From positions 65,807,326 through 65,871,325 of the forward strand of contig NC_090395.1 in the NCBI RefSeq assembly GCF_036365525.1: 64,000 nucleotides of DNA, written 5' to 3'. The position numbers and the translations under genes were made by a program. Numbering within the stretch: position 1 is the stretch's first letter; each line of letters starts with the position of its first letter. The DNA comes from Heterodontus francisci (Eukaryota). The notes below the pieces were generated by a model. That model was not told where the DNA came from and did not search any database. It saw only the letters and a list, made by a program, of their open reading frames with translations. Shown here in pieces: positions 2,021-59,910 of the stretch.

Positions 2021-3115
2021 GGTAATGGACCTCCTGGTAATTTTTTAATGGATTTGGGCATGTGAGTATAAAAGTGGTCAAAGACAGGCTCGTAAGCAGA
2101 TAGACTGTCCAATCACCATGCCAATTTTGGCCTATTCTGTTTCTATGCCACAGAAACGGACAGTTCCAGAGAGGCAGATCAGTGATTGGAATATTTAGTG
2201 AGGCTCCATTCCTCAGATTTGGGAGCCATTTGAATTGAATGGCTCTAGGCCAGGTTTCTAGGGCTCAGGAAACCAGGCTGCTGAAGGGAGGCTGATGCTG
2301 ACGGGAGGAATAGTTAAATCTGTTACCAGCACTTGCTTGTGGGCCAGGAGTTGTAGAAGTGCTTCCCACCCATCCCCCCAAGAAAACGTTTCTCCCTCCC
2401 CATAATCGGCCAAATTGTGCCCGCCCCCGGAACCCCACCAGCGATTGGCCAACACCCCATCCCCAGCAATCTCACTCTCTCTCCCTCCCTCCTTACTTCC
2501 ATGCTCTGAGCCTGCACCTTCTCAATCTAGCCCATTGCTGGGTGGGAAATGGAGTAAACGAATTCTAGGTTCTGCCCTTAAATTTGCGTCGACCTCAACC
2601 TCCACAGCATTTCTGTGTTTCCCAACCATACACATGCTCCCTCCCAGCCTCCCTGTAAATTTCAGGACATAAAGATTAATTTTCAGCAGCAGACACTGGA
2701 AACAATCATAATTACACTCCCCATCTAGAGCCACAAAATATGTAACAGATATCTATAAATGTTTTGCTCTCATTTTCTGCCGGATTTCTCCAATTAGTTC
2801 ATGTTCGACAATCAAACAATTAAACAGCATTGGAGGCTAGCCACCTGCTACTTAGAGAATTTTTTAGTCCTGATTTTCATATTGACACATCCTCAGTATC
2901 ATTGCTGTCCTGATCTGCAGCCCTGCTATGTTCTGATACAATGGCAGACATCGTGGTCCAGGCTGCTACGAGGATGGAGAGATATGGAGAGGTAGATGTG
3001 CTGGTGAGATTCCAACATGACAGGTCCTGCCTAAGATACAAAAGTGCTGAAAATTGGAGAGTATTTGATTTTTAGATGCTCAGTCAGTATCTGAATGTTT
3101 GTTTCTTTCCCACAG

Positions 3116-3438
3116 AATCGTATCTGTTCCTGTACTTGGATTTTTATCACCACCAAATGTCACATATTCTGGGGGCTCAGTGTCCGTCTCCTGTGAGTCT
3201 GTCCGGGGATCCCTTCCCATTCGGTACACATGGCATGAAAAGACCCCGTCTGAAGATTCAAAGATCTCTGACACCAATAAACTGGATCTACATTGTCAAT
3301 CCTTCAAACAGCAACATCATCAATATTACTGCACAGCCTCGAATAATCAGGGGAGAAAATCCAGTGAAATTGTTCATGTGTCAGTCTTCAACAGATCGGG
3401 ATTGAATTGCAGTTATGTGACGCAAATCAGCAGCATTG
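3116..3438 (+). pseudogene. Gene A: duplicated C2-type Ig exon with a 1-nt deletion (frameshifted pseudo-exon or assembly error)
   Basis: Acceptor tttcccacag|3116 and donor 3438|gtaagt. Length is 323 nt versus 324 nt for the paralog at 38325 (AATCGTA vs AATCCGTG). Ig frame: SVPVLGFLSPPNVTYSGGSVSVSCESVRGSLPIRYTW...QYYCTASN. Phase-1 entry reads ESYLFLYLDF... to a TGA at 3403-3405. Confidence 0.8.
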
Positions 3439-3544
3439 GTAAGTGTTAGTGTAAGCAAACAATATGCTGAATGAATTAGTTTTAATTAATGTGTATTCAA
3501 ACTAGTTAAGTTCCTTTAGTCACTCCGAGAAACTGCAAAATAAA

Positions 3545-6158: not shown

Positions 6159-6465
6159 GGCTGGAATTTTACGTGGCAGCGAAGACCCCACCGTCGGGGG
6201 AGAGCCCGCCTCCGCCAGGCCTGGAAGCCACACAACACTTTTACTTGGCCCAGACCCTGAATTGACCTCAGGTGGGATTTCCGTCCTTCTGAGGCAGGAT
6301 GTCCCACATCCAAGAGCTGCCAGCCAATCAGCACGCCTGCAGCTCTTCAGTCCCAGCTGCGCCGCTGGGAGCGAATTTAAATGCAGGACCTCCACCTTTG
6401 CGGCATTTCTGGGTTTCCCAGTCACACATGCACTTCCTCCCTGCCTTTCTATAAATTTCAAGGCC
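6159..6465. mobile_element. GC-rich Harbinger-type MITE / composite remnant
   Basis: Starts GGCTGGAATTTTAC and ends AAATTTCAAGGCC; contains GAGCTGCCAGCCAATCAG, shared with MITEs at 41814, 54971, 51290 and 62400. Confidence 0.55.
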
Positions 6466-6927
6466 AAAAGGCTTCTTTTCAGCTGAAGTTGCCTGGAACA
6501 AATCACAATTACACTCCCTATTTAAAACTACAATACATGAAACAGATAAGTGCCAATTCTTTGCCCTCATTTCCTGCTGGGATTTTCCAGGACTCTCTCC
6601 AACTCGTTCATGTTCAACAGTCAAACAATTAAACAACATTGGAGACTGGCTACATGCTACTAAGAGATGTTGTTAGCCTTGATTTCCATGTTGACACATC
6701 CTCAGTATCATTGCTACTGTCCTGATCTGCAGCCCTGCTATGTTCTGATACAATGGCAGACATGGTAGTTGAGGCTGCTCGGAGGATGGAGAGATATGGA
6801 GATGTAGATCTGCTGGTGAGATTCCAACATGGCAGGTCCTGGCCGAGATACAGAAGTGCTGACAATTGCAAAGTATTTGATTTTTAGATGTTCAGTCAAT
6901 ATCTGAATGTTTGTTTCTTTCCCACAG

Positions 6928-7245
6928 AATCTGTTCCTGTGCTTGTATTTTTATCACCACCAAATGTCTCCTGTTCTGGGGGTTCAGTGTCCGTCTCCTG
7001 TGAGTCTGTCCAGGGATCCCTTCCCATTCAGTACACATGGTATGAAAAGACCCCGTCTGAAGATTCAAAGATCTCTGACACCAATAAACTGGATCTACAT
7101 TGTCAATCCTTCACACAGAAACATCATCAATATTACTGCACAGCCTCAGATAATCAGGGAGAAAAATCCAGTGAAATGGTTAATGTGTCAGTCTTCAACA
7201 TATCGAGGACGAGCTGCAGTTATGTGACAATAATCAGGGGCATTG
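6928..7245 (+). CDS. Gene A exon: intact C2-type Ig domain (phase 1-1, 318 nt)
   Basis: tttcccacag|AATCTGTT...GGCATTG|gtaagt; encodes ESVPVLVFLSPPNVSCSGGSVSVSCESVQGSLPIQYTWYEK...LDLHC...QYYCTASDNQGEKSSEMVNVSVFN with the B-strand Cys, C-strand Trp and F-strand YYC. Confidence 0.9.
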
Positions 7246-8229
7246 GTAAGTGCTAGTTTAAACAAACAATGTGGTAAATGCACTTTTATAATTAATGTCT
7301 ATCCAAACTGGTCACTGGTTAAATTCGTCACTGAGAAAATGCAACAGGCCAAATTCACTCTATTTGGTTCCCTCAATAGTTAGAACAAGGCTATTTTTCA
7401 TGGAAAATATATCCCCCAAAACATGTGCAAAAATTACAGAAACTCCATTATTCCCATGAAATTAAAATGAAACTTGTTTGACTTTATAAACCGATATGCC
7501 TATTTCGAGCAGGTGGAGTTGTCAAATGCAACATCCAACTATTGTGCCCCAGTTTAGGAAAGATGTCAAGTGATAAGAGTGTGGAGGAGTAGAACTAAAA
7601 TAAAACCTGGGATGAGAGGTTTTAGTTATGAGGAGAGAAACATCAGAACAGAGGTTAAGTGAACTGCTGGATGTATTCAAAATTATTAGGGGCTTTGATG
7701 TGGTAAATTGGAACTAATTATTTCCACCAGCCAGTAGTGAGTCAGCAACTAGGCGGCATAAATTTGAGATCATCACCAAAAGGACAAAGGGGGAAGATAG
7801 GAAAATTTTATTGATGCAAATAGTTGTTAGGACATGGAAAGGCGGGCACGAATAAATGTCAGAAGCAAAATCAATAATAGCTTTGAAATGGGAAGCGAAA
7901 AGAAACACATTTAGCAGGGTATGGGGGAAAGGATAAGGCAATGGGATTAAGTGCGGAGCTCTTTCCAAGAGCCAGCACAAGATCATATTAAACACGCATC
8001 TGCTAATATTGGCAATGGTCATTTTCTGCATTATGGGGTCAGTTTTCTAAGCTTGCAGGAGCGATGGAAACCTCACCCTAGCGGCAGTGGATATTGCAAA
8101 ATCCCGTCAGCGATTTTCCACCCATTTAATTATAATGATCCATGTTGCTGTTGGGAAAGGATCCCTACCTCCAGCGAGCACTCAGATAACGAGCTCAGGT
8201 GTATTTTAATATATAACTAGCTTTAAAAT

Positions 8230-11690: not shown

Positions 11691-13052
11691 TGTAAAAGAT
11701 CCCATGGTATTGTTCAAAGAAGAATAGAGAAGTTCTTCTGGTGCCCTAGCAAGCATTCACCCCTCAACCAATGTCACTAAAATACAGATTAACTGACAAT
11801 TTATCTCATTACTGTTGGTGGATGTTTGCTGCATGCAGATTACCTTCTGTGTTTCCCTGCATTATAACAGTGAATATACTTCAGATTGTTATTCTTCATC
11901 TCCATAGTGACGATCTGTTTGGTTTATCTGTTACCTTGTGTACAGAAAACCTCCATAGTAACTCTCTCTTAAACAAACAGCCTGTTTAGATTTATGCACC
12001 CATTGGATTAAGGGAATTCGGCTGTGAGGCACTTTGGAATATCCTGAGGTCATGAAAGGTGTTGGGTCAATAATACTGCAAGATCAGAAAATCAGCCCCA
12101 AGAGCTGGAAATGACCATTGACAATTTTAGCAGTTGACTGTTTAATATGATCATGTGATAGTAATAATATTATGTTAACAGCCAAATGCCGTACAAATTT
12201 TCACTGCTTGTCCAGTATTATTCAACAACAGTGATTATTAACCGAAATTTCCCAAACACTTAATCCTCAGCTGACATTGCTTTTCCACTGCGGATAGCTC
12301 TCCAGGACAAAATCGTGGTTTCCAGGCCCCCAGAAATACAGTTCCAGTGCTGGTAGGGGGCCGCTCTCTGCCTGGAACTTTCTTTATGTTTGTATGGAGG
12401 AAAAAAGTGATATCTGGATTTTAGTTCATCAACCTGAGCCTTTTAACTGCCCCTATAGTAACTTTGTATTACCAACATTCAGATATGTGGATGAAACAGA
12501 ATTAATCAGGAAAAATGGGTCATTGGCAGGTGTCAGCAGAATCTCTCCTTGATACCAGAGAGGGGGAAATTACATAAAACTTAAACCATCCAAATCCATT
12601 ATACTAACCAAAGTTCCATTTGAGAAGAGTGCTGAATTGCTTGACTGCACGGGAGAGAAACAGGTGAATAGAGTCATAGAGTCATACAGCACAGAAACAG
12701 GCCCTTCGGCCCATCATATCCATGCCAGACATCAAGCACCTATCTATTCTAATCCCATTTTCCAGCACTTGGCCCGTAGCCTTGGCGTTTCAAGTGCTCA
12801 TCTAAATACTTCTTAAATGTAGTGAGGGTTCCTGCCTCTACCACCCCTTCAGGCAGTGTGTTCCAGATTCCAACCACCTTTGGGTGAAATTTCTTTTCCT
12901 CAAATCCCCTCTAAACCTTCTGCCCCTTACCTTAAATCTACGCCCCCTGGTTATTGACCCCACCGCGAAGGGAAAAAGTTTCTTCCTATCTAACCTATCT
13001 GTGCCCCTCACAATTTTGTATGAATCTAAATGTTGTCCCCTTGTCTCAATAG

Positions 13053-13125
13053 GACCTGAACATTATTGTGAAGATTTTTCACCAACTTCAACCACATCTT
13101 CAGGATCTCCATCTGTCAGTAAAAG
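13053..13125 (+). CDS. Gene A exon: Ser/Thr/Pro-rich stalk (phase 1-2, 73 nt)
   Basis: ttgtctcaatag|GACCTGAA...AAAAG|gtaaaa; GPEHYCEDFSPTSTTSSGSPSVSK; paralogous to 41176-41296, and its phases fit both neighbouring exons. Confidence 0.85.
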
Positions 13126-13999
13126 GTAAAATATTCTCATTTATGGTGCTTTCATGAGCATTGAATTCAAATGAGAATAAATGATTAAGAGTTTTGGCAT
13201 AAGGATTTATAATCATTTGCTATTTTAGACTATAATTTATCAGAATGGAAATGGTGGCTGGCTTTACGTCATGCTGTTGTGTTAGGTTCCTAACGAAGTT
13301 ATGTTGGTGCAAAGTAAGAATAAGAAGTAAGCATCTCCAGTTTGCCACCCCTCAGATGGTGCTACTTTCATTATTCACCTTGATTGCTTCACTGCTAACC
13401 TAATCTCATGGACTTGTGCTTGCTGCTCTCCAGCGATGTCAGTTTTCCTTAACCTTCTCCCTTCTGAAGTGGCACTGACAGAAAAGTCGCATTCTCTGTC
13501 ATTTTCTTCTTCACAGTTCTCCAGTGGTGTATACATTCTTCCCAAACATAGAGGGAAGGAAGTCTGTCTGCTTCCAGTTCTCAACAATTGCCTGTTAGAA
13601 GGTGCGTAAGAACATTGTGGGATGATGCTATTCTGAGTACCCTCACTGCCTGCGGAGACATCTCATCAATGCTGCATCACACCAGACAGTGCTGCTTCCC
13701 TCAGATGGTCAGTCACTTTTATAAAGTCCCCAATTATAAAATTGAGCCTAACATTACAGCTATGCATTTTGGACATGTTAACGAACTTTGCTTAATTTGA
13801 TCTTTATCTAATTATCACAAAGTTGTCTTTCCTCCATGAGTCAAACACTAGGTTAGTTTCCCAGCTAAAGTCCCTTGGCTCTGCTGCTTCACATTAGTAC
13901 ACTATACTAAGATTACAGTGTAAACAAGAGATAAATGTTTTAAATACAAAGCAGTCTCATTTCTTCTGAATGGTTTTGTATTTCTTCTCTTTTGTTCAG

Positions 14000-14090
14000 T
14001 TACATTATCTGGAATGCGATACGCTGGGTACTCTTTGCTGTCCTGGTGACTTGTACTTTTACAGTAACAAGGTGCATGAGAAAACGCAAG
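14000..14090 (+). CDS. Gene A exon: transmembrane segment with charged Arg (activating type)
   Basis: cttttgttcag|T TAC ATT ATC TGG AAT GCG ATA CGC... reads (S)YIIWNAIRWVLFAVLVTCTFTVTRCMRKRK|gtgggg; phase-2 entry matches the stalk exon; hydrophobic run followed by basic stop-transfer residues. Confidence 0.85.
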
Positions 14091-14281
14091 GTGGGGATTA
14101 TGGACTTTATATGAATCACTGCATCAATACTTTCAAAAATATTGATCACAGATATTGTAAAGAAAAACTTGCATTTACGTAAATCCTTTCATGTCCACGA
14201 ATGAAACAAAGTATTTTACAGCCAATATGAGTTCGTTTTTAAGTGCTACTGATGTCAGCTAGGAAAACCAAATGGAAATGT

Positions 14282-14415
14282 CCTTTCATCAGGTCACAGA
14301 CCTGAAACATTAACTCTGTTTCTCTCTCCACAGATGCTGCCAGACCTGCTGAGTATATCCAGCACTTTCTGTTTTTATTTCAGGTTTCCAGCATCTGCAG
14401 TATTTTCCTTTTATT
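14282..14415. mobile_element. Penelope-like terminal-repeat fragment
   Basis: AGGTCACAGACCTGAAACATTAACTCTG...GATGCTGCCAGACCTGCTGAG; same family as 30715 and 32555 but in the opposite orientation. Confidence 0.6.
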
Positions 14416-15469: not shown

Positions 15470-15517
15470 TCACTCGCTGAATCAGATGGTCACAGTTTGA
15501 TCAAGGTGGTAAAATGA
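15470..15517 (+). CDS. Gene A probable terminal exon: short Tyr-free cytoplasmic tail
   Basis: ttttctttttcag|TCA CTC GCT...AAA TGA reads SLAESDGHSLIKVVK* in phase 0, matching the TM exon donor; AATAAA at 15614-15619. Alternative: read-through of the weak donor gives VGIMDFI* ending at 14114. Confidence 0.6.
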   Translation, partial: SLAESDGHSLIKVVK

Positions 15518-28682: not shown

Positions 28683-28722
28683 ATGATGTGGATTCCGATT
28701 CTTCTCATTTGTTCCCTGCCCG
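28683..28722 (+). CDS. Gene B exon 1: signal peptide
   Basis: ATG ATG TGG ATT CCG ATT CTT CTC ATT TGT TCC CTG CCC G|gtgagt reads MMWIPILLICSLP(V); a phase-1 donor joins VSGA of exon 2 to complete a leader. Confidence 0.85.
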
Positions 28723-31329: not shown

Positions 31330-31641
31330 TTTCAGGTGCATTGTGGGCAAAAAAGAAAGTAACAGGAATTGTGGGAAGAGCGATCACAATAGATTGTCAC
31401 TATGGGGCATCGTACCAGTCATCCATGAAATATTGGTGTCATGGCTGGACTCGACAGTGTTCAGTTTTAGTCAAATCAAATGGGCAACATGAAAGAATAT
31501 CAATCACAGATAACAAGAAACAAGGAATATTTATTGTTACAATGAAGGATCTTCGCTCAGAAGATGCAGGAAAGTACAGCTGTGGTATTGAAAATTGGAG
31601 CTTTGATCCAATGTTTGCTGTAGAGCTACAAATATCTTACG
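31330..31641 (+). CDS. Gene B exon 2: V-set Ig domain of CD300/pIgR/TREM type (phase 1-1, 312 nt)
   Basis: ctcctcag|TTTCAGGT...TACG|gtacat; ITIDCHY...KYWCHGWTRQC...RISITDN...FIVTMKDLRSEDAGKYSCG. Canonical Cys pair plus the extra KYWC-x6-C pair characteristic of CD300/pIgR V domains. Confidence 0.93.
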
Positions 31642-36900: not shown

Positions 36901-37409
36901 TGGCCATGGCGAATACATTGAGTTAAGATACAGACCAATCATAATCTAATTGAATGGCGGAACAGGCCAAGGGGCTGAATGGTCTACTCACTTTGCTACT
37001 TTCCGGACCACCTATTTATTTTTCAATAGATCTGGGAGTGTGAGTAGCAAAGTGCTTAGGGACAGGCTCACAAGCAGTACTATTCAAAGATAGACTGTCC
37101 TGCCATCAAGCAAATTTTGACGTAATTGTTTCTGAGTTTGCGTCAATGATAATAGTGAAGACCCACCAATTCTCTTTTTAAAAATATTGGTGGATCTGGT
37201 CATTTTTGTGTTTTGGCTACTCCCTTGACACAGAGATAAAAGCGGAAGCTCCCTCCACCCCATCTCCAAAAGGCAGGAGAGGATCGGGTGCAGGGTTTCA
37301 ATGTGTAACCCAACCGGCTGTGAACTTGCTTAGTTCTCTTATAACTACAGCCGGTTCAAGGTATCAAGTACCCTGCTCTGGAGGGGCGGTCAGTGATTAT
37401 AATATTTAA

Positions 37410-37866
37410 ATGAGGCTCCGTTCCTCTGATTTTGGGATCCATTTGAATTTAGTGATTGTGGGCCGTGTTTCCCAGGTTTCGGGAAACTGGGCTGCTGAAG
37501 GGAGGCAGGAGCTGCTGATTGCAGAAGGAAAATCCATTTCCAGCACTGCTTGTGGGCGAGGAGGAGCTGGAGTGCTTCTCCCTGCCACCCAATCAAACAG
37601 TCTCCTGCCATCTCTCTCCCATCACAATCAATTGACACCCTCACCATTGACCAACATCCACTCCCCCCAGCTGTGATATCTCCCTCCCTCCTCACTGCCA
37701 TGCACTGAGCAGCCAGATTTCTAATTTGGTCCACTGCCGGGCAGGAAACAGAGTAAAATGCTCGAATAAGATCCTGTCATTAAATTCGCACAACCTCCAT
37801 CTTCCACAGCATTTCTGAGCTTCCCGGGCAAACATGCACTCCCTCTCTGCCTTATAAATTTCAGGC
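37410..37866. mobile_element. MITE remnant shared with the duplicated intron segments at 2200-2670 and 6365-6465
   Basis: Shared blocks GAGGCTCC(A/G)TTCCTC..., CAGCAC..GCTTGTGGGC, and terminal TAAATTTCAGG. Confidence 0.55.
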
Positions 37867-38324
37867 CAGAGGATCACTTTTCAGTTGCAGATAACTGGAA
37901 CCAATCACAATTACACTTCCGATCTAAATCCACAAAACTTCTAAAAGATATCTGGTAATTTTTTGCCATCATTTTCTGCTGTGTTTATGACTCTCACCAA
38001 CTGGTTCACATTTGAGAGTCAAACAATTAATCAGCATTAGAGGCTGGTTACCTGCCACTGAGAGAAATTGTTACCCTGATTTTCATATTGACACATCCTC
38101 AGTATCATTGCTGCTGTCCTGATCTGCAGCCCTGCTATGTTCTGATACAAGGGTAAACATGGTAGTTGAGGCTACTGGGCGGATGGAGAGATATGGAGAG
38201 GTAGATGTGCTGGTGAGATTCCAACATGGCGGACCCTGGCTGAGATACAGAAGTGCTGATAATTGGAGAGTATTTGATTTTTAGATGTTCAGTCAGTATC
38301 TGAATGTTCGTTTCTTTCCCGCAG

Positions 38325-38648
38325 AATCCGTGTCTGTTCCTGACCTTAGATTTTTATCACCACCAAATGTCTCATGTTCCGGGGGTTCAGTGTCCGTCTC
38401 CTGCAAGTCTGTCCAGGGATCCCTTCCCATTCAGTACACATGGTATGAAAAGATCCCGTCTGAAGATTCAAAGATCTCTGACTCCAGTAAACTTGATCTA
38501 CATTGTCAATCCTTCACTCAGCAACATCATCAATATTACTGCACAGCCTCGAATAATCAGGGAGAAAAATCCAGTGAAATGGTTAATGTGTCAGACATCA
38601 ACAGATCGGGGGAGAGCTGCAGTTATGTGATACAAATCGACAGCATTG
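38325..38648 (+). CDS. Gene B exon 3: C2-type Ig domain (phase 1-1, 324 nt)
   Basis: tttcccgcag|AATCCGTG...AGCATTG|gtaagt; ESVSVPDLRFLSPPNVSCSGGSVSVSCKSVQGSLPIQYTWYEK...QYYCTASNNQGEKSSE. Confidence 0.93.
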
Positions 38649-39794
38649 GTAAGTGTTGGTTTAAACAAACAATGTGGTAACTGATTTTTTAAAAAATAAT
38701 GTCTATCCAAACTTGTCACTGGTTAAATTCCTTCAATCACTCTAAGAAACTTCAACTGGGCAAATTCACTCTATTTGGTCCCTCTGCAGTTATGAACAAG
38801 GACACAGATCTGCATTTTTTTAAGGAAAATGGATGGGATCATAAAATACTGCCAAACCATACATAAATATTGCAGAAACTACAGTAATTCCATGAAATTA
38901 AAATGGAATTTGTTTGACTGAATCTTCATAAACCAATATGCCTGTTTCTAGCAGATGGAACTGTGAAATGCAACCTCCAACTGTTGCGTTCTGGTTTAGG
39001 AAGAATGTCAGGGATGGAGTGTTGAAGAGTTGAACTAAAATGAAACCTGAGGTGAGATTTTAGTTATGAGGTGAGAAACATCAGAACAGATGTTAAGTGA
39101 TATGCTGGAGATATTAAAAAGTATTAGAGGCTTTGATCAGGTAAATTCGGATTAATTCCTTCCACTCGTCAGTGAGGGAGCAACTGAAGGGCATAAATTT
39201 AACATCATCACCAAAAGGACCAGGGAAGAAGTTAATGGAATTCTATTGATGTAAATGGTTGCCAGGACATGGAATGCTGGCTCAAATAAGTGTCAGAAAC
39301 AGAATCAATAATGGCTTTTAAAAGGGAAGGGAAAAGAAGCAAATTTAGGAGGATGTGGGGACAGTACAAGACAATGGGACTAAGTGGGGAGTTCTTTCAG
39401 AGAGTCAGCACAAGAGTGAATTTCCTCCTTCTCTGCTGTAAAATTCTATCATTCCAAATTGTCAGACAAAATCTTAGAACTCCATCTACTAAAAAGTGAT
39501 TTACTCAGTCACCATAAAACAACGATCCTTTTCTGAATTAAGAAGGATCTTGGCCTATTTGAATCTAGTGGTTTAATTTTCTGCAAAGTGGAAACAGCAT
39601 GTTCACCATTGGTTGCGCTGAGAAACATCAAAATGGTCAGCAAACAGAAATGGAGTTTCTCCTGAGCGATAGTACATATAAATTACATACACAAATACTG
39701 ACACTGGCCATGTGCTAATGTGGTTACTTTCTTGAGATGTCAGAGAAGAAGACTGTCAATTGCAGGTAGAAATTGTAAACTGCATTTGAAATGT

Positions 39795-41175: not shown

Positions 41176-41296
41176 GACTGGAATATTTTTGTGAAGTTTC
41201 TTCAACTGTATCACCAACAACTACACATTCTACAAGCACAAATATAATTTCCACTGATTATCGGAACCAATCATCAAAATTAAAACCTGATAAAAG
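41176..41296 (+). CDS. Gene B exon 4: Ser/Thr-rich stalk (phase 1-2, 121 nt)
   Basis: ttgtttcaatag|GACTGGAA...GATAAAAG|gtacaa; GLEYFCEVSSTVSPTTTHSTSTNIISTDYRNQSSKLKPDK. Confidence 0.88.
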
Positions 41297-42617: not shown

Positions 42618-42706
42618 CCTGCTTTACATTGTGCTTGGTGTGCTGGCGGTCTTTCTTGTTGTGTTCGCTGTTTCTCTACTTTTGTACCTGAGGCAATTCA
42701 AAAAAG
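42618..42706 (+). CDS. Gene B exon 5: uncharged transmembrane segment (phase 2-1, 89 nt)
   Basis: ctctgtcacag|C CTG CTT TAC...AAA AAA G|gtgagt reads (S)LLYIVLGVLAVFLVVFAVSLLLYLRQFKK(G). Confidence 0.92.
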
Positions 42707-57062: not shown

Positions 57063-57218
57063 ATGTAGGGAAATTATGATTGCAATATTGTTGAGGTTCA
57101 CATGAATGTAGATCAATGTAAGGTTATGAACACAGCAACACATGTTTAGTTTGGACATTTTAAACTTATTAACCATTCCTCTTACAGTTCTTTCAACAGT
57201 AACATTGTAATTTTTCAG

Positions 57219-57271
57219 GTACAAACTACATTATACGTCATCGAAAAGGAAAGACTGTAAATGAGAATCAG
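57219..57271 (+). CDS. Gene B exon 6: membrane-proximal cytoplasmic segment (phase 1-0, 53 nt)
   Basis: taatttttcag|GT ACA AAC...AAT CAG|gtaagg reads (G)TNYIIRHRKGKTVNENQ; its phases bridge the TM exon and the ITIM exon exactly. Confidence 0.8.
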
Positions 57272-57799
57272 GTAAGGACATCCAGTATGAATTCTCTAAC
57301 TATTGTATGGAAATTGGCAAAACTGGATGACATAGATTTACATCAAATTTACAGCACAGAAATAGGCCATTCAGCCCAACTGGTTACGCTAGTGTTAATG
57401 CTTCACATGAGCCTCCTCCTACCCCTCTTCATCTAACTCTGTTAATGTATCCTTCTATTCCTTTCTCCCTTGTATGCTTAACTCCCTTTCCCTGAAATGC
57501 AAGTATGCTATTTAACTCAACCAATCCTTAAGAAAGGAATAAGGAATTCAGGAGCAACCTCTTTACCTCCAGAGTGCTCAGAATGTAGAACTCTACCAGA
57601 GGGTGAATATGATAAATCCATTCAAGGGGAAGCTGGATAAGCACATGAGGGAGTAAGAAGTAGAAGGATATGCTGGTGAGGTTAGATGAAGAGGGGTGAG
57701 AAGAGGTTGGTGAAGAGAATAACACCGGCACGGACCCATTGGGCTGAACTGCCTGTTTTTGTGCTGTAAATATATATTTTAATATATTCCCTCCATCAT

Positions 57800-59595: not shown

Positions 59596-59910
59596 CAATT
59601 GGCAACAGTAGAAGAGAGCGCTGTATATGCAAATATTAACCACATTCCAAGTGGCTCAGCAGAAACACATAGCGAGGGAGCTGCCAAGTTGAATAATGAA
59701 AACGGAATCACATATGCAGCATTGCAGTTTCAAAAGAAATCGTCAGCACGGAGCGGTGAGGTGGCAAAGTGTTCAGTTAACAACGAGGACAGTGTCATCT
59801 ACAGTGGTCTCAACATTCTAAGCCAGTCCCCAAAGAACAATCGAGAAACGCCATCAGTTGATACACCACAGGACACTCAAATGGCAATTTATGCTACCGT
59901 TACTCGTTAG
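59596..59910 (+). CDS. Gene B exon 7: cytoplasmic tail with ITIMs and stop codon
   Basis: tttttattttag|CAA TTG GCA...; AVYANI, ITYAAL, VIYSGL, AIYATV*. The seven exons sum to 1254 nt, one open frame of 417 aa. Confidence 0.92.
   Translation, partial: QLATVEESAVYANINHIPSGSAETHSEGAAKLNNENGITYAALQFQKKSSARSGEVAKCSVNNEDSVIYSGLNILSQSPKNNRETPSVDTPQDTQMAIYATVTR

What the first reader, a model, noticed from the sequence alone, without database searches (positions are those of the whole stretch)
14000..14090. FcR-gamma-type TM signature (Y-x3-N-x2-R) on a CD300-like family receptor
Seen: YIIWNAIRWVLFAVLV. Established: an Arg near the outer end of the TM in a YxxxNLxR context is used by FcalphaRI, LILRA, GPVI and NKp46-type receptors to pair with FcR-gamma/CD3-zeta, whereas DAP12-coupled CD300/TREM receptors typically use a central Lys. 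Inference: an ancient FcR-gamma-coupled module attached to a CD300/pIgR-like ectodomain. Gene A's V exon is inferred because it lies outside the window.
Basis: partly seen in the sequence, partly recalled or inferred. Interest (0 to 1): 0.7.

Follow-up and report, generated by a model that had tools for sequence, protein, structure and literature searches.

The report
Shark receptor's conserved membrane arginine
This is the membrane-spanning exon of a shark immune receptor that likely belongs to an already described family of paired on/off receptors; its arginine is kept in relatives from sharks to coelacanth and likely recruits an activating signalling chain, but the asparagine that made it look like the mammalian FcR-gamma motif varies among relatives, and this gene copy carries a frameshift in an earlier exon.

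Summary
The exon (14000-14090, YIIWNAIRW...) is real. It belongs to a leader-V-C2-C2-stalk-TM-short-tail gene in a shark cluster of CD300/pIgR-like paired receptors, likely the MDIR family. The conserved element is W-x3-R-W, not NxxR. Over 44 distinct segments of this TM class: Arg 43, Trp(+1) 44, Trp(-4) 42, Asn(-3) only 6. The class also occurs in rays, sturgeon and coelacanth. The other published NxxR hallmarks (DYT start, acidic end, tail in the TM exon) are absent. An Arg near the outer face fits a zeta/FcR-gamma-family adaptor better than DAP12, but this is inferred. Only CD3-zeta was found in the genome; the same search also missed the essential neighbour gene NDUFS2, so FcR-gamma is not excluded. 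FcR-gamma coupling of a CD300 receptor is already published (mouse LMIR8). RNA contigs show splicing for two paralogues, not for this copy, whose first C2 exon is 1 nt short. This scan reported the same motif before on other DNA. Verdict: ordinary member of a known kind.

The parts
14000..14090 (+). Gene A transmembrane exon, 91 nt, intron phase 2 before and phase 0 after; W-x3-R-W class; Arg codon CGC at 14022-14024
   Evidence: paralogue RNA contigs match its boundaries
13053..13125 (+). Gene A Ser/Thr-rich stalk exon (73 nt)
15470..15517 (+). Gene A last coding exon (15 residues and stop; no Tyr motif)
   Evidence: the same exon of a paralogue is joined to its TM exon in RNA contigs
6928..7245 (+). 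Gene A second C2-type Ig exon (318 nt, in frame)
3116..3438 (+). Gene A first C2-type Ig exon, 323 nt against 324 in five intact paralogous exons: frameshift at its start if the canonical acceptor is used. The leader (C25:65799357-65799393) and V exon (C25:65803377-65803697) lie upstream of the window
28683..28722 (+). Gene B (inhibitory-type neighbour) leader exon
31330..31641 (+). Gene B CD300/pIgR-type V exon, 82% DNA identity to gene A's V
38325..38648 (+). Gene B C2 exon
41176..41296 (+). Gene B stalk exon; its start and the intron behind it are homologous to gene A's
42618..42706 (+). Gene B uncharged TM exon (89 nt, phase 2 before, phase 1 after)
59596..59910 (+). Gene B last cytoplasmic exon (end approximate) with four Tyr motifs, two ITIM-like (ITYAAL, VIYSGL); a small cytoplasmic exon lies near 57200-57300

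Best explanation
The exon encodes the membrane anchor of a predicted activating-type member of a shark paired-receptor cluster (likely the MDIR family), whose conserved W-x3-R-W arginine likely pairs with the acidic residues of an ITAM adaptor dimer, most likely of the CD3-zeta/FcR-gamma family. Shown: exon structure, V-C2-C2 ectodomain, tyrosine-free tail, conservation of Arg and both Trp, neighbours with an uncharged TM and ITIM-like tails, splicing in two paralogues. Inferred: adaptor binding, adaptor identity, activation. The Asn is not a conserved part of the motif, so the likeness to the mammalian NxxR motif is likely convergent. This copy (gene A) may be disabled or shortened by a 1-nt deletion in its first C2 exon.
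For: Arg 43 of 44, Trp(+1) 44 of 44, Trp(-4) 42 of 44, Asn(-3) 6 of 44 distinct segments. Position -3 is charged (K, D, R, E) in 16 of 44, which marks the outer membrane face three residues from the Arg; it is hydrophobic in 4 of 4 mammalian CD300-like K/E segments. FcR-gamma prefers an N-terminal Arg and DAP12 a central Lys (PMC1440944). The codon is a CpG-containing CGN in 7 of 8 cluster exons in a region with CpG observed/expected 0.33; the one loss (TGC) is in a gene that also has a stop in a V exon and a frameshifted C2 exon. A shark CD3-zeta TM exon with the CYILD aspartate is in the genome. Ectodomain exons do not sort by TM type in the trees, as expected of paired receptors.
Against: No binding or signalling data for any member. 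The profile was seeded on R-W segments, so the Arg and Trp counts are partly circular, and the 44 segments include isoforms and close paralogues. The depth estimate is unstable: median place 6 in the best 21-residue window (range 3-18), between the published 3 (Fc-alpha-RI) and 9 (KIR), against 8 for three mammalian CD300-like lysines. No FcR-gamma gene or protein was found. The R/K rule has exceptions: LMIR8 uses Lys with FcR-gamma. Gene A's canonical splicing gives a stop at codon 216.
Confidence: 0.6

Rival explanations
1. One reading: this is a true homologue of the LRC/FCRL NxxR transmembrane module, moved onto a CD300/pIgR ectodomain, and it couples FcR-gamma specifically.
For: Y-x3-N-x2-R spacing matches; Tyr(-7) in 28 of 44 segments; Asn in 4 of 8 exons of this cluster and in 2 Mustelus proteins. 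NxxR modules have been reused by unrelated ectodomains in Xenopus (PMC2413239, PMC6557307).
Against: Asn in 6 of 44; no DYT; basic instead of acidic C-end; tail in a separate exon; the two near-invariant Trp are not among the published NxxR hallmarks. Coelacanth has Asp and sturgeon Ser at that place.
Confidence: 0.12
2. The Arg is the positional equivalent of the mammalian CD300 Lys and docks DAP12 or DAP10.
For: In gene A the Arg lies 16 residues before the next charged residue, as does the Lys of a bat CD300-like protein (P0132); 5-6 of the 7 preceding residues are hydrophobic in most segments.
Against: DAP12 disfavours Arg in type I proteins (K-to-R cut KIR assembly to 15%; PMC1440944). 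Charged residues at -3 in 16 of 44 put the Arg near the surface. No DAP10/DAP12 exon was identified, but these searches are weak.
Confidence: 0.15
3. The Arg between two Trp is structural (an interfacial anchor, or used for retention or self-association); the receptor is an adaptor-free decoy or adhesion molecule.
For: Trp is as conserved as the Arg; Trp with Arg at the bilayer face is a common anchor (general knowledge).
Against: In the proteins examined this TM goes with short tyrosine-free tails, and uncharged TMs go with long Tyr-motif tails, which is the usual activating/inhibitory split.
Confidence: 0.13
4. Gene A itself is a recent pseudogene, so this exon is not used, though paralogues are. 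This is independent of the three mechanisms above.
For: First C2 exon 323 nt, frameshift, stop at codon 216. At least three other genes of the cluster have stops or frameshifts.
Against: Skipping that exon gives an open 295-residue product, and two upstream AGs (starts 3076, 3088) give open frames. The exon has no internal stop and is no more diverged than its sisters (pN 0.07-0.11 in 8 aligned pairs). A 1-nt loss could be an assembly error or an allele; I could not check DNA reads.
Confidence: 0.35

Closest known systems
Modular domain immune-type receptors (MDIR) of clearnose skate (Cannon et al. 2006, PMID 16738934; not held, seen only as described in passages of PMC3031540)
   Same: Cartilaginous-fish multigene family of activating/inhibitory receptors resembling CD300, TREM, FCAR and pIgR. 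From recall, not from a call: modular mixes of domain types and one form with a positively charged TM residue.
   Different: No skate MDIR record appeared among the hits I could name, so no direct comparison was made. I found no report of the adaptor.
Mammalian activating CD300/LMIR receptors (e.g. mouse LMIR8/CLM-6, PMC5974347)
   Same: V domain of the CD300/pIgR type, short tail, basic TM residue, inhibitory twins; some couple to FcR-gamma.
   Different: They use Lys (or Glu) after about seven hydrophobic residues and, in the records seen, lack the W-x3-R-W frame; the shark gene adds C2 domains.
NxxR-type TM of LRC receptors (Fc-alpha-RI, LILRA, GPVI, NKp46, OSCAR) and Xenopus FCRL/SLAM-like receptors (PMC6557307, PMC2413239, PMC4536121)
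   Same: Arg near the outer end, Tyr seven residues before it, short tail; Asn present in this copy.
   Different: Asn not conserved in the family, no DYT, no acidic C-end, tail in its own exon, two conserved Trp, different ectodomain.
Database 'pIgR-like' / 'CMRF35-like' / 'FCRL5' models of sharks, rays, sturgeon and coelacanth (P0004, P0012, P0027, P0056, P0111, P0188)
   Same: Same V domain type and same W-x3-R-W TM.
   Different: Automatic names only; several are fused models of neighbouring genes.

Membership tests
NxxR-type FcR-gamma-docking TM (LRC/XFL) | [quoted passage not shown] | tested here: inconclusive
   Charged residue at -3 in 16 of 44 favours the outer face; hydrophobic-window estimate median 6, range 3-18
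NxxR-type FcR-gamma-docking TM (LRC/XFL) | Invariant Asn three residues before the Arg | tested here: not met
   Present in this copy, but in 6 of 44 segments of the class; K in an expressed paralogue
NxxR-type FcR-gamma-docking TM (LRC/XFL) | Consensus DYT at the N-terminus (PMC6557307) | tested here: not met
   S-Y-I here; Ser at -8 in 25 of 44; neither Asp at -8 nor Thr at -6 is among the six commonest residues
NxxR-type FcR-gamma-docking TM (LRC/XFL) | Acidic residue(s) at the C-end of the TM (PMC6557307) | tested here: not met
   R-C-M-R-K-R-K
NxxR-type FcR-gamma-docking TM (LRC/XFL) | TM and tail in one exon (Xenopus TM1, PMC2413239 section 6) | tested here: not met
   Separate last exon at 15470-15517; spliced so in a paralogue. 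The single-V gene at C25:65421232 does stop inside its TM exon
NxxR-type FcR-gamma-docking TM (LRC/XFL) | Associates with FcR-gamma | not testable with these tools
   Needs co-expression and co-IP
MDIR | CD300/pIgR-type V domain | tested here: met
   Gene B's V exon: Pfam V-set E 3.5e-10; PDB hits are pIgR, CD300, NKp44, TLT-1. Gene A's V exon is 82% identical to it and finds 'pIgR-like'/'CMRF35-like' proteins
MDIR | Multigene family with activating- and inhibitory-type members in a cartilaginous fish | tested here: met
   23 V-exon matches, 22 within C25:65.24-65.89 Mb; nine V-C2 genes with two TM types
MDIR | Modular mix of V and C2 domains (feature recalled, not read) | tested here: met
   V-C2, V-C2-C2, (V-C2)x2 and (V-C2)x3 arrangements
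MDIR | Groups with the skate MDIR sequences | not tested
   No MDIR record among the 30 representative hits looked up or the named hits; earlier scan notes claim it
Mammalian CD300 | Single V domain and central TM Lys/Glu in activating forms | tested here: not met
   V-C2-C2 and W-x3-R-W
Mammalian CD300 | Conserved synteny with the CD300 locus | not tested
   Flanking genes were not examined

The most novel reading that the evidence does not exclude
W-x3-R-W is a separate, jawed-vertebrate-old activating membrane module of CD300/pIgR-like receptors (sharks, rays, sturgeon, coelacanth). It docks the zeta/FcR-gamma dimer independently of the NxxR module, and shark haplotypes still swap it behind different ectodomains to turn inhibitory fronts into activating receptors.
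Probability: 0.35. Interest if true: 0.55.

Novelty: new member of a known kind. Interest (0 to 1): 0.3.

Why it matters
It gives a concrete, testable pairing (an expressed shark Arg-TM receptor plus shark CD3-zeta or FcR-gamma) for how innate activating receptors were wired early in jawed vertebrates. It also shows that an 'NxxR' match in one paralogue is not proof of the LRC module. It does not define a new kind of system: paired receptors of this type in skates and FcR-gamma-coupled CD300 receptors in mice are published.

Tried and rejected
Complex prediction of a shark CD3-zeta TM dimer (P0221 1-36, two copies) with the Arg-TM of a single-V relative (P0061 135-174, not gene A): no verdict, score 0.02; not evidence either way. 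No RNA holder on record was listed; three runs guessed to be RNA, from one sample, had no contig at 95% or better on 13030-14285, so no cover of gene A itself; not evidence of silence. Laying 20 kb was swamped by repeats. Search for FcR-gamma: PF11628 gave 1 match among 59 candidates, CD3-zeta; one search found only itself. The control NDUFS2 (PF00346; linked to FcR-gamma per PMC4536121) also gave 0 matches, so these blanks do not show absence. DAP10 family hit was non-coding. One ITAM-like terminal exon at C3:122.40 Mb stayed unidentified; no zeta/gamma TM in 98 kb upstream. A DNA pattern for DYT-x2-N-x2-R gave 236 matches; the 30 fetched showed no TM exon, many listed were a repeat, and the pattern also admitted Ser. 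The TM exon alone matched nothing in Pfam or PDB, and a relative's TM part had no usable Atlas hit. The mean pN/pS values printed include one misaligned row (G4c2) and were not used. Cannon 2006 and a review by the same group were not held.

Full report
Observation. Window 14000-14090 is a 91-nt exon between AG and GT. It reads YIIWNAIRWVLFAVLVTCTFTVTRCMRKRK. The pattern Y-x3-N-x2-R alone occurs 11 times in the six frames of the window, so the pattern needs context to mean anything.

The gene. Comparing shark and ray homologues (58 proteins; 13 used as queries) with the window and its flanks gives gene A: leader and V exon upstream of the window, C2 exons at 3116-3438 and 6928-7245, stalk 13053-13125, TM 14000-14090, last exon 15470-15517. 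The tail has no tyrosine. The V domain is of the CD300/pIgR type: the sister V exon in the window hits Pfam V-set and PDB pIgR, CD300, NKp44 and TLT-1. The first C2 exon is 323 nt, against 324 in five intact paralogous exons. With canonical splicing the frame closes at codon 216; skipping the exon, or using acceptors at 3076 or 3088, keeps it open to the normal stop. I could not tell deletion from allele or assembly error.

The cluster. 22 of 23 V-exon matches lie in C25:65.24-65.89 Mb. In 724 kb fetched I found nine V-C2 genes: four with an uncharged TM and a Tyr-motif tail, five with the Arg-class TM, plus three more Arg-class TM exons further along. Gene B in the window is an inhibitory-type neighbour with two ITIM-like motifs. 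V and C2 exons do not sort by TM type (many branches weakly supported). Both TM types follow a homologous stalk and a phase-2 intron.

What is conserved. A profile seeded on 18 R-W segments collected 46 segments, 44 distinct, from the cluster and from the proteins fetched by then. Arg 43, Trp(+1) 44, Trp(-4) 42, Phe(+4) 37, Tyr(-7) 28, Asn(-3) 6 of 44. At -3: Ser 13, Lys 8, Asn 6, Ala 5, Asp 5, Arg 2, others 5. The Asn forms are four exons of this cluster and two Mustelus proteins. The counts for Arg and Trp are partly circular and the rows are not independent (isoforms, close paralogues). The class extends beyond sharks and rays to coelacanth (P0188) and sturgeon (P0111); only the best 150 of 3592 hits were seen, so the range is a lower bound. 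The Arg codon is CGN in 7 of 8 cluster exons despite CpG depletion (observed/expected 0.33); the one change to Cys is in a broken gene.

Expression. Three runs from one sample, guessed to be RNA, hold contigs that cover only the exon and carry other exons as loose ends. One differs from gene A at 6 places, as does the paralogue at C25:65549483, and is joined to that paralogue's last exon (0 mismatches in 30). Another differs at 9 places over 13998-14065, as does the paralogue at C25:65610094, and is joined to its stalk (0 mismatches in 30). That second paralogue has Lys in place of the Asn. So the exon class is spliced into mRNA; gene A itself was not seen.

Mechanism. Feng et al. (PMC1440944; abstract and passages) show that assembly rests on one basic residue meeting an Asp pair, FcR-gamma preferring an N-terminal Arg (place 3) and DAP12 a central Lys (place 9). 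Here the residue is Arg, never Lys, and position -3 is charged in 16 of 44 segments, which puts the Arg close to the outer face; four mammalian CD300-like segments have a hydrophobic residue there. A hydrophobic-window estimate was less clear (median place 6). I therefore favour a zeta/gamma-family adaptor (about 0.6) over DAP12/DAP10 (0.15) or none (0.13). The genome search found only CD3-zeta, but it also missed NDUFS2, an essential gene linked to FcR-gamma (linkage from PMC4536121 passages), so FcR-gamma cannot be called absent. All adaptor steps are inferred.

Comparison with what is known. The NxxR subtype is defined by the Arg, an invariant residue of the NxxR motif (the paper's text prints 'Asp at -2'; I read it as the Asn), a DYT start and an acidic C-end (PMC6557307 passages), and in Xenopus by TM and tail sharing one exon (PMC2413239 passages and section 6). 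This class fails the Asn, DYT, acidic-end and exon tests, so it may work like an NxxR TM but is not filed as one. Mouse LMIR8 shows that a CD300 receptor can couple FcR-gamma, and with a Lys (PMC5974347 passages). The family fits the skate MDIRs as summarised in PMC3031540 (passages); the original paper was not held, and its content is recalled only. Searches for MDIR, NxxR and shark adaptor terms (listings only, except for the papers named above) turned up no paper on a W-x3-R-W TM or on the adaptor of these receptors; the library lacks most subscription journals.

Earlier scan notes reached the same reading for this motif in other genomes and for other genes of this cluster. They are unchecked AI notes and were not counted as evidence. 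One infers CD3-zeta from the absence of FcR-gamma; my NDUFS2 control weakens that step.

Verdict. Real exon, real conserved arginine, known kind of receptor; the NxxR likeness is largely incidental and this copy may be damaged. Interest 0.3.

Noticed in passing
RNA contigs of runs X1-X3 laid on window 13997-14090; G000:C25:65549483 and 65521274: Contigs join an Arg-class TM exon like the paralogue at 65549483 to a stalk end that is not that gene's assembled stalk but resembles the stalk of the neighbouring ITIM-type gene (3 mismatches in 30). The 30-mer is not in G000 at up to 2 mismatches. Possibly a haplotype or relative with swapped front and back halves; one sample only.
   Followed up: partly
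G000:C25:65549391-65549483 (L002): This paralogue stops two residues after the TM core's closing Arg, close to the last splice junction, so it would be nearly tail-less; the matching RNA contig has the same number of differences from gene A.
   Followed up: partly
G000:C25:65603-65648 kb (L009, L011, L006, L003): A three-unit (V-C2) gene whose first V exon has two stops in the assembly, yet its stalk-TM junction is in RNA contigs; the letters after its TM exon in RNA do not match its assembled last exon.
   Followed up: partly
G000:C3:122403295-122403370 (L100): Terminal exon with an ITAM-like motif; gene not identified, no zeta/gamma-type TM exon within 98 kb upstream.
   Followed up: partly
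G000:C25:59153271-59153561 (L026): A lone distant V exon of the same broad family about 6 Mb from the cluster.
   Followed up: no
window 6377-7982 / 37780-39415 and 2169-3503 / 37381-38713: The C2 exons and their introns are duplicated within and between genes A and B (79-84% identity), showing local exon duplication.
   Followed up: partly
P0142, P0171, P0181, P0196 (eel, bonefish, mormyrid, halosaur): Early-branching teleost pIgR-like proteins have another short-tail TM type, some with Arg or Lys near its start (e.g. WVLRH, VLRK); relation to the W-x3-R-W class not examined.
   Followed up: no
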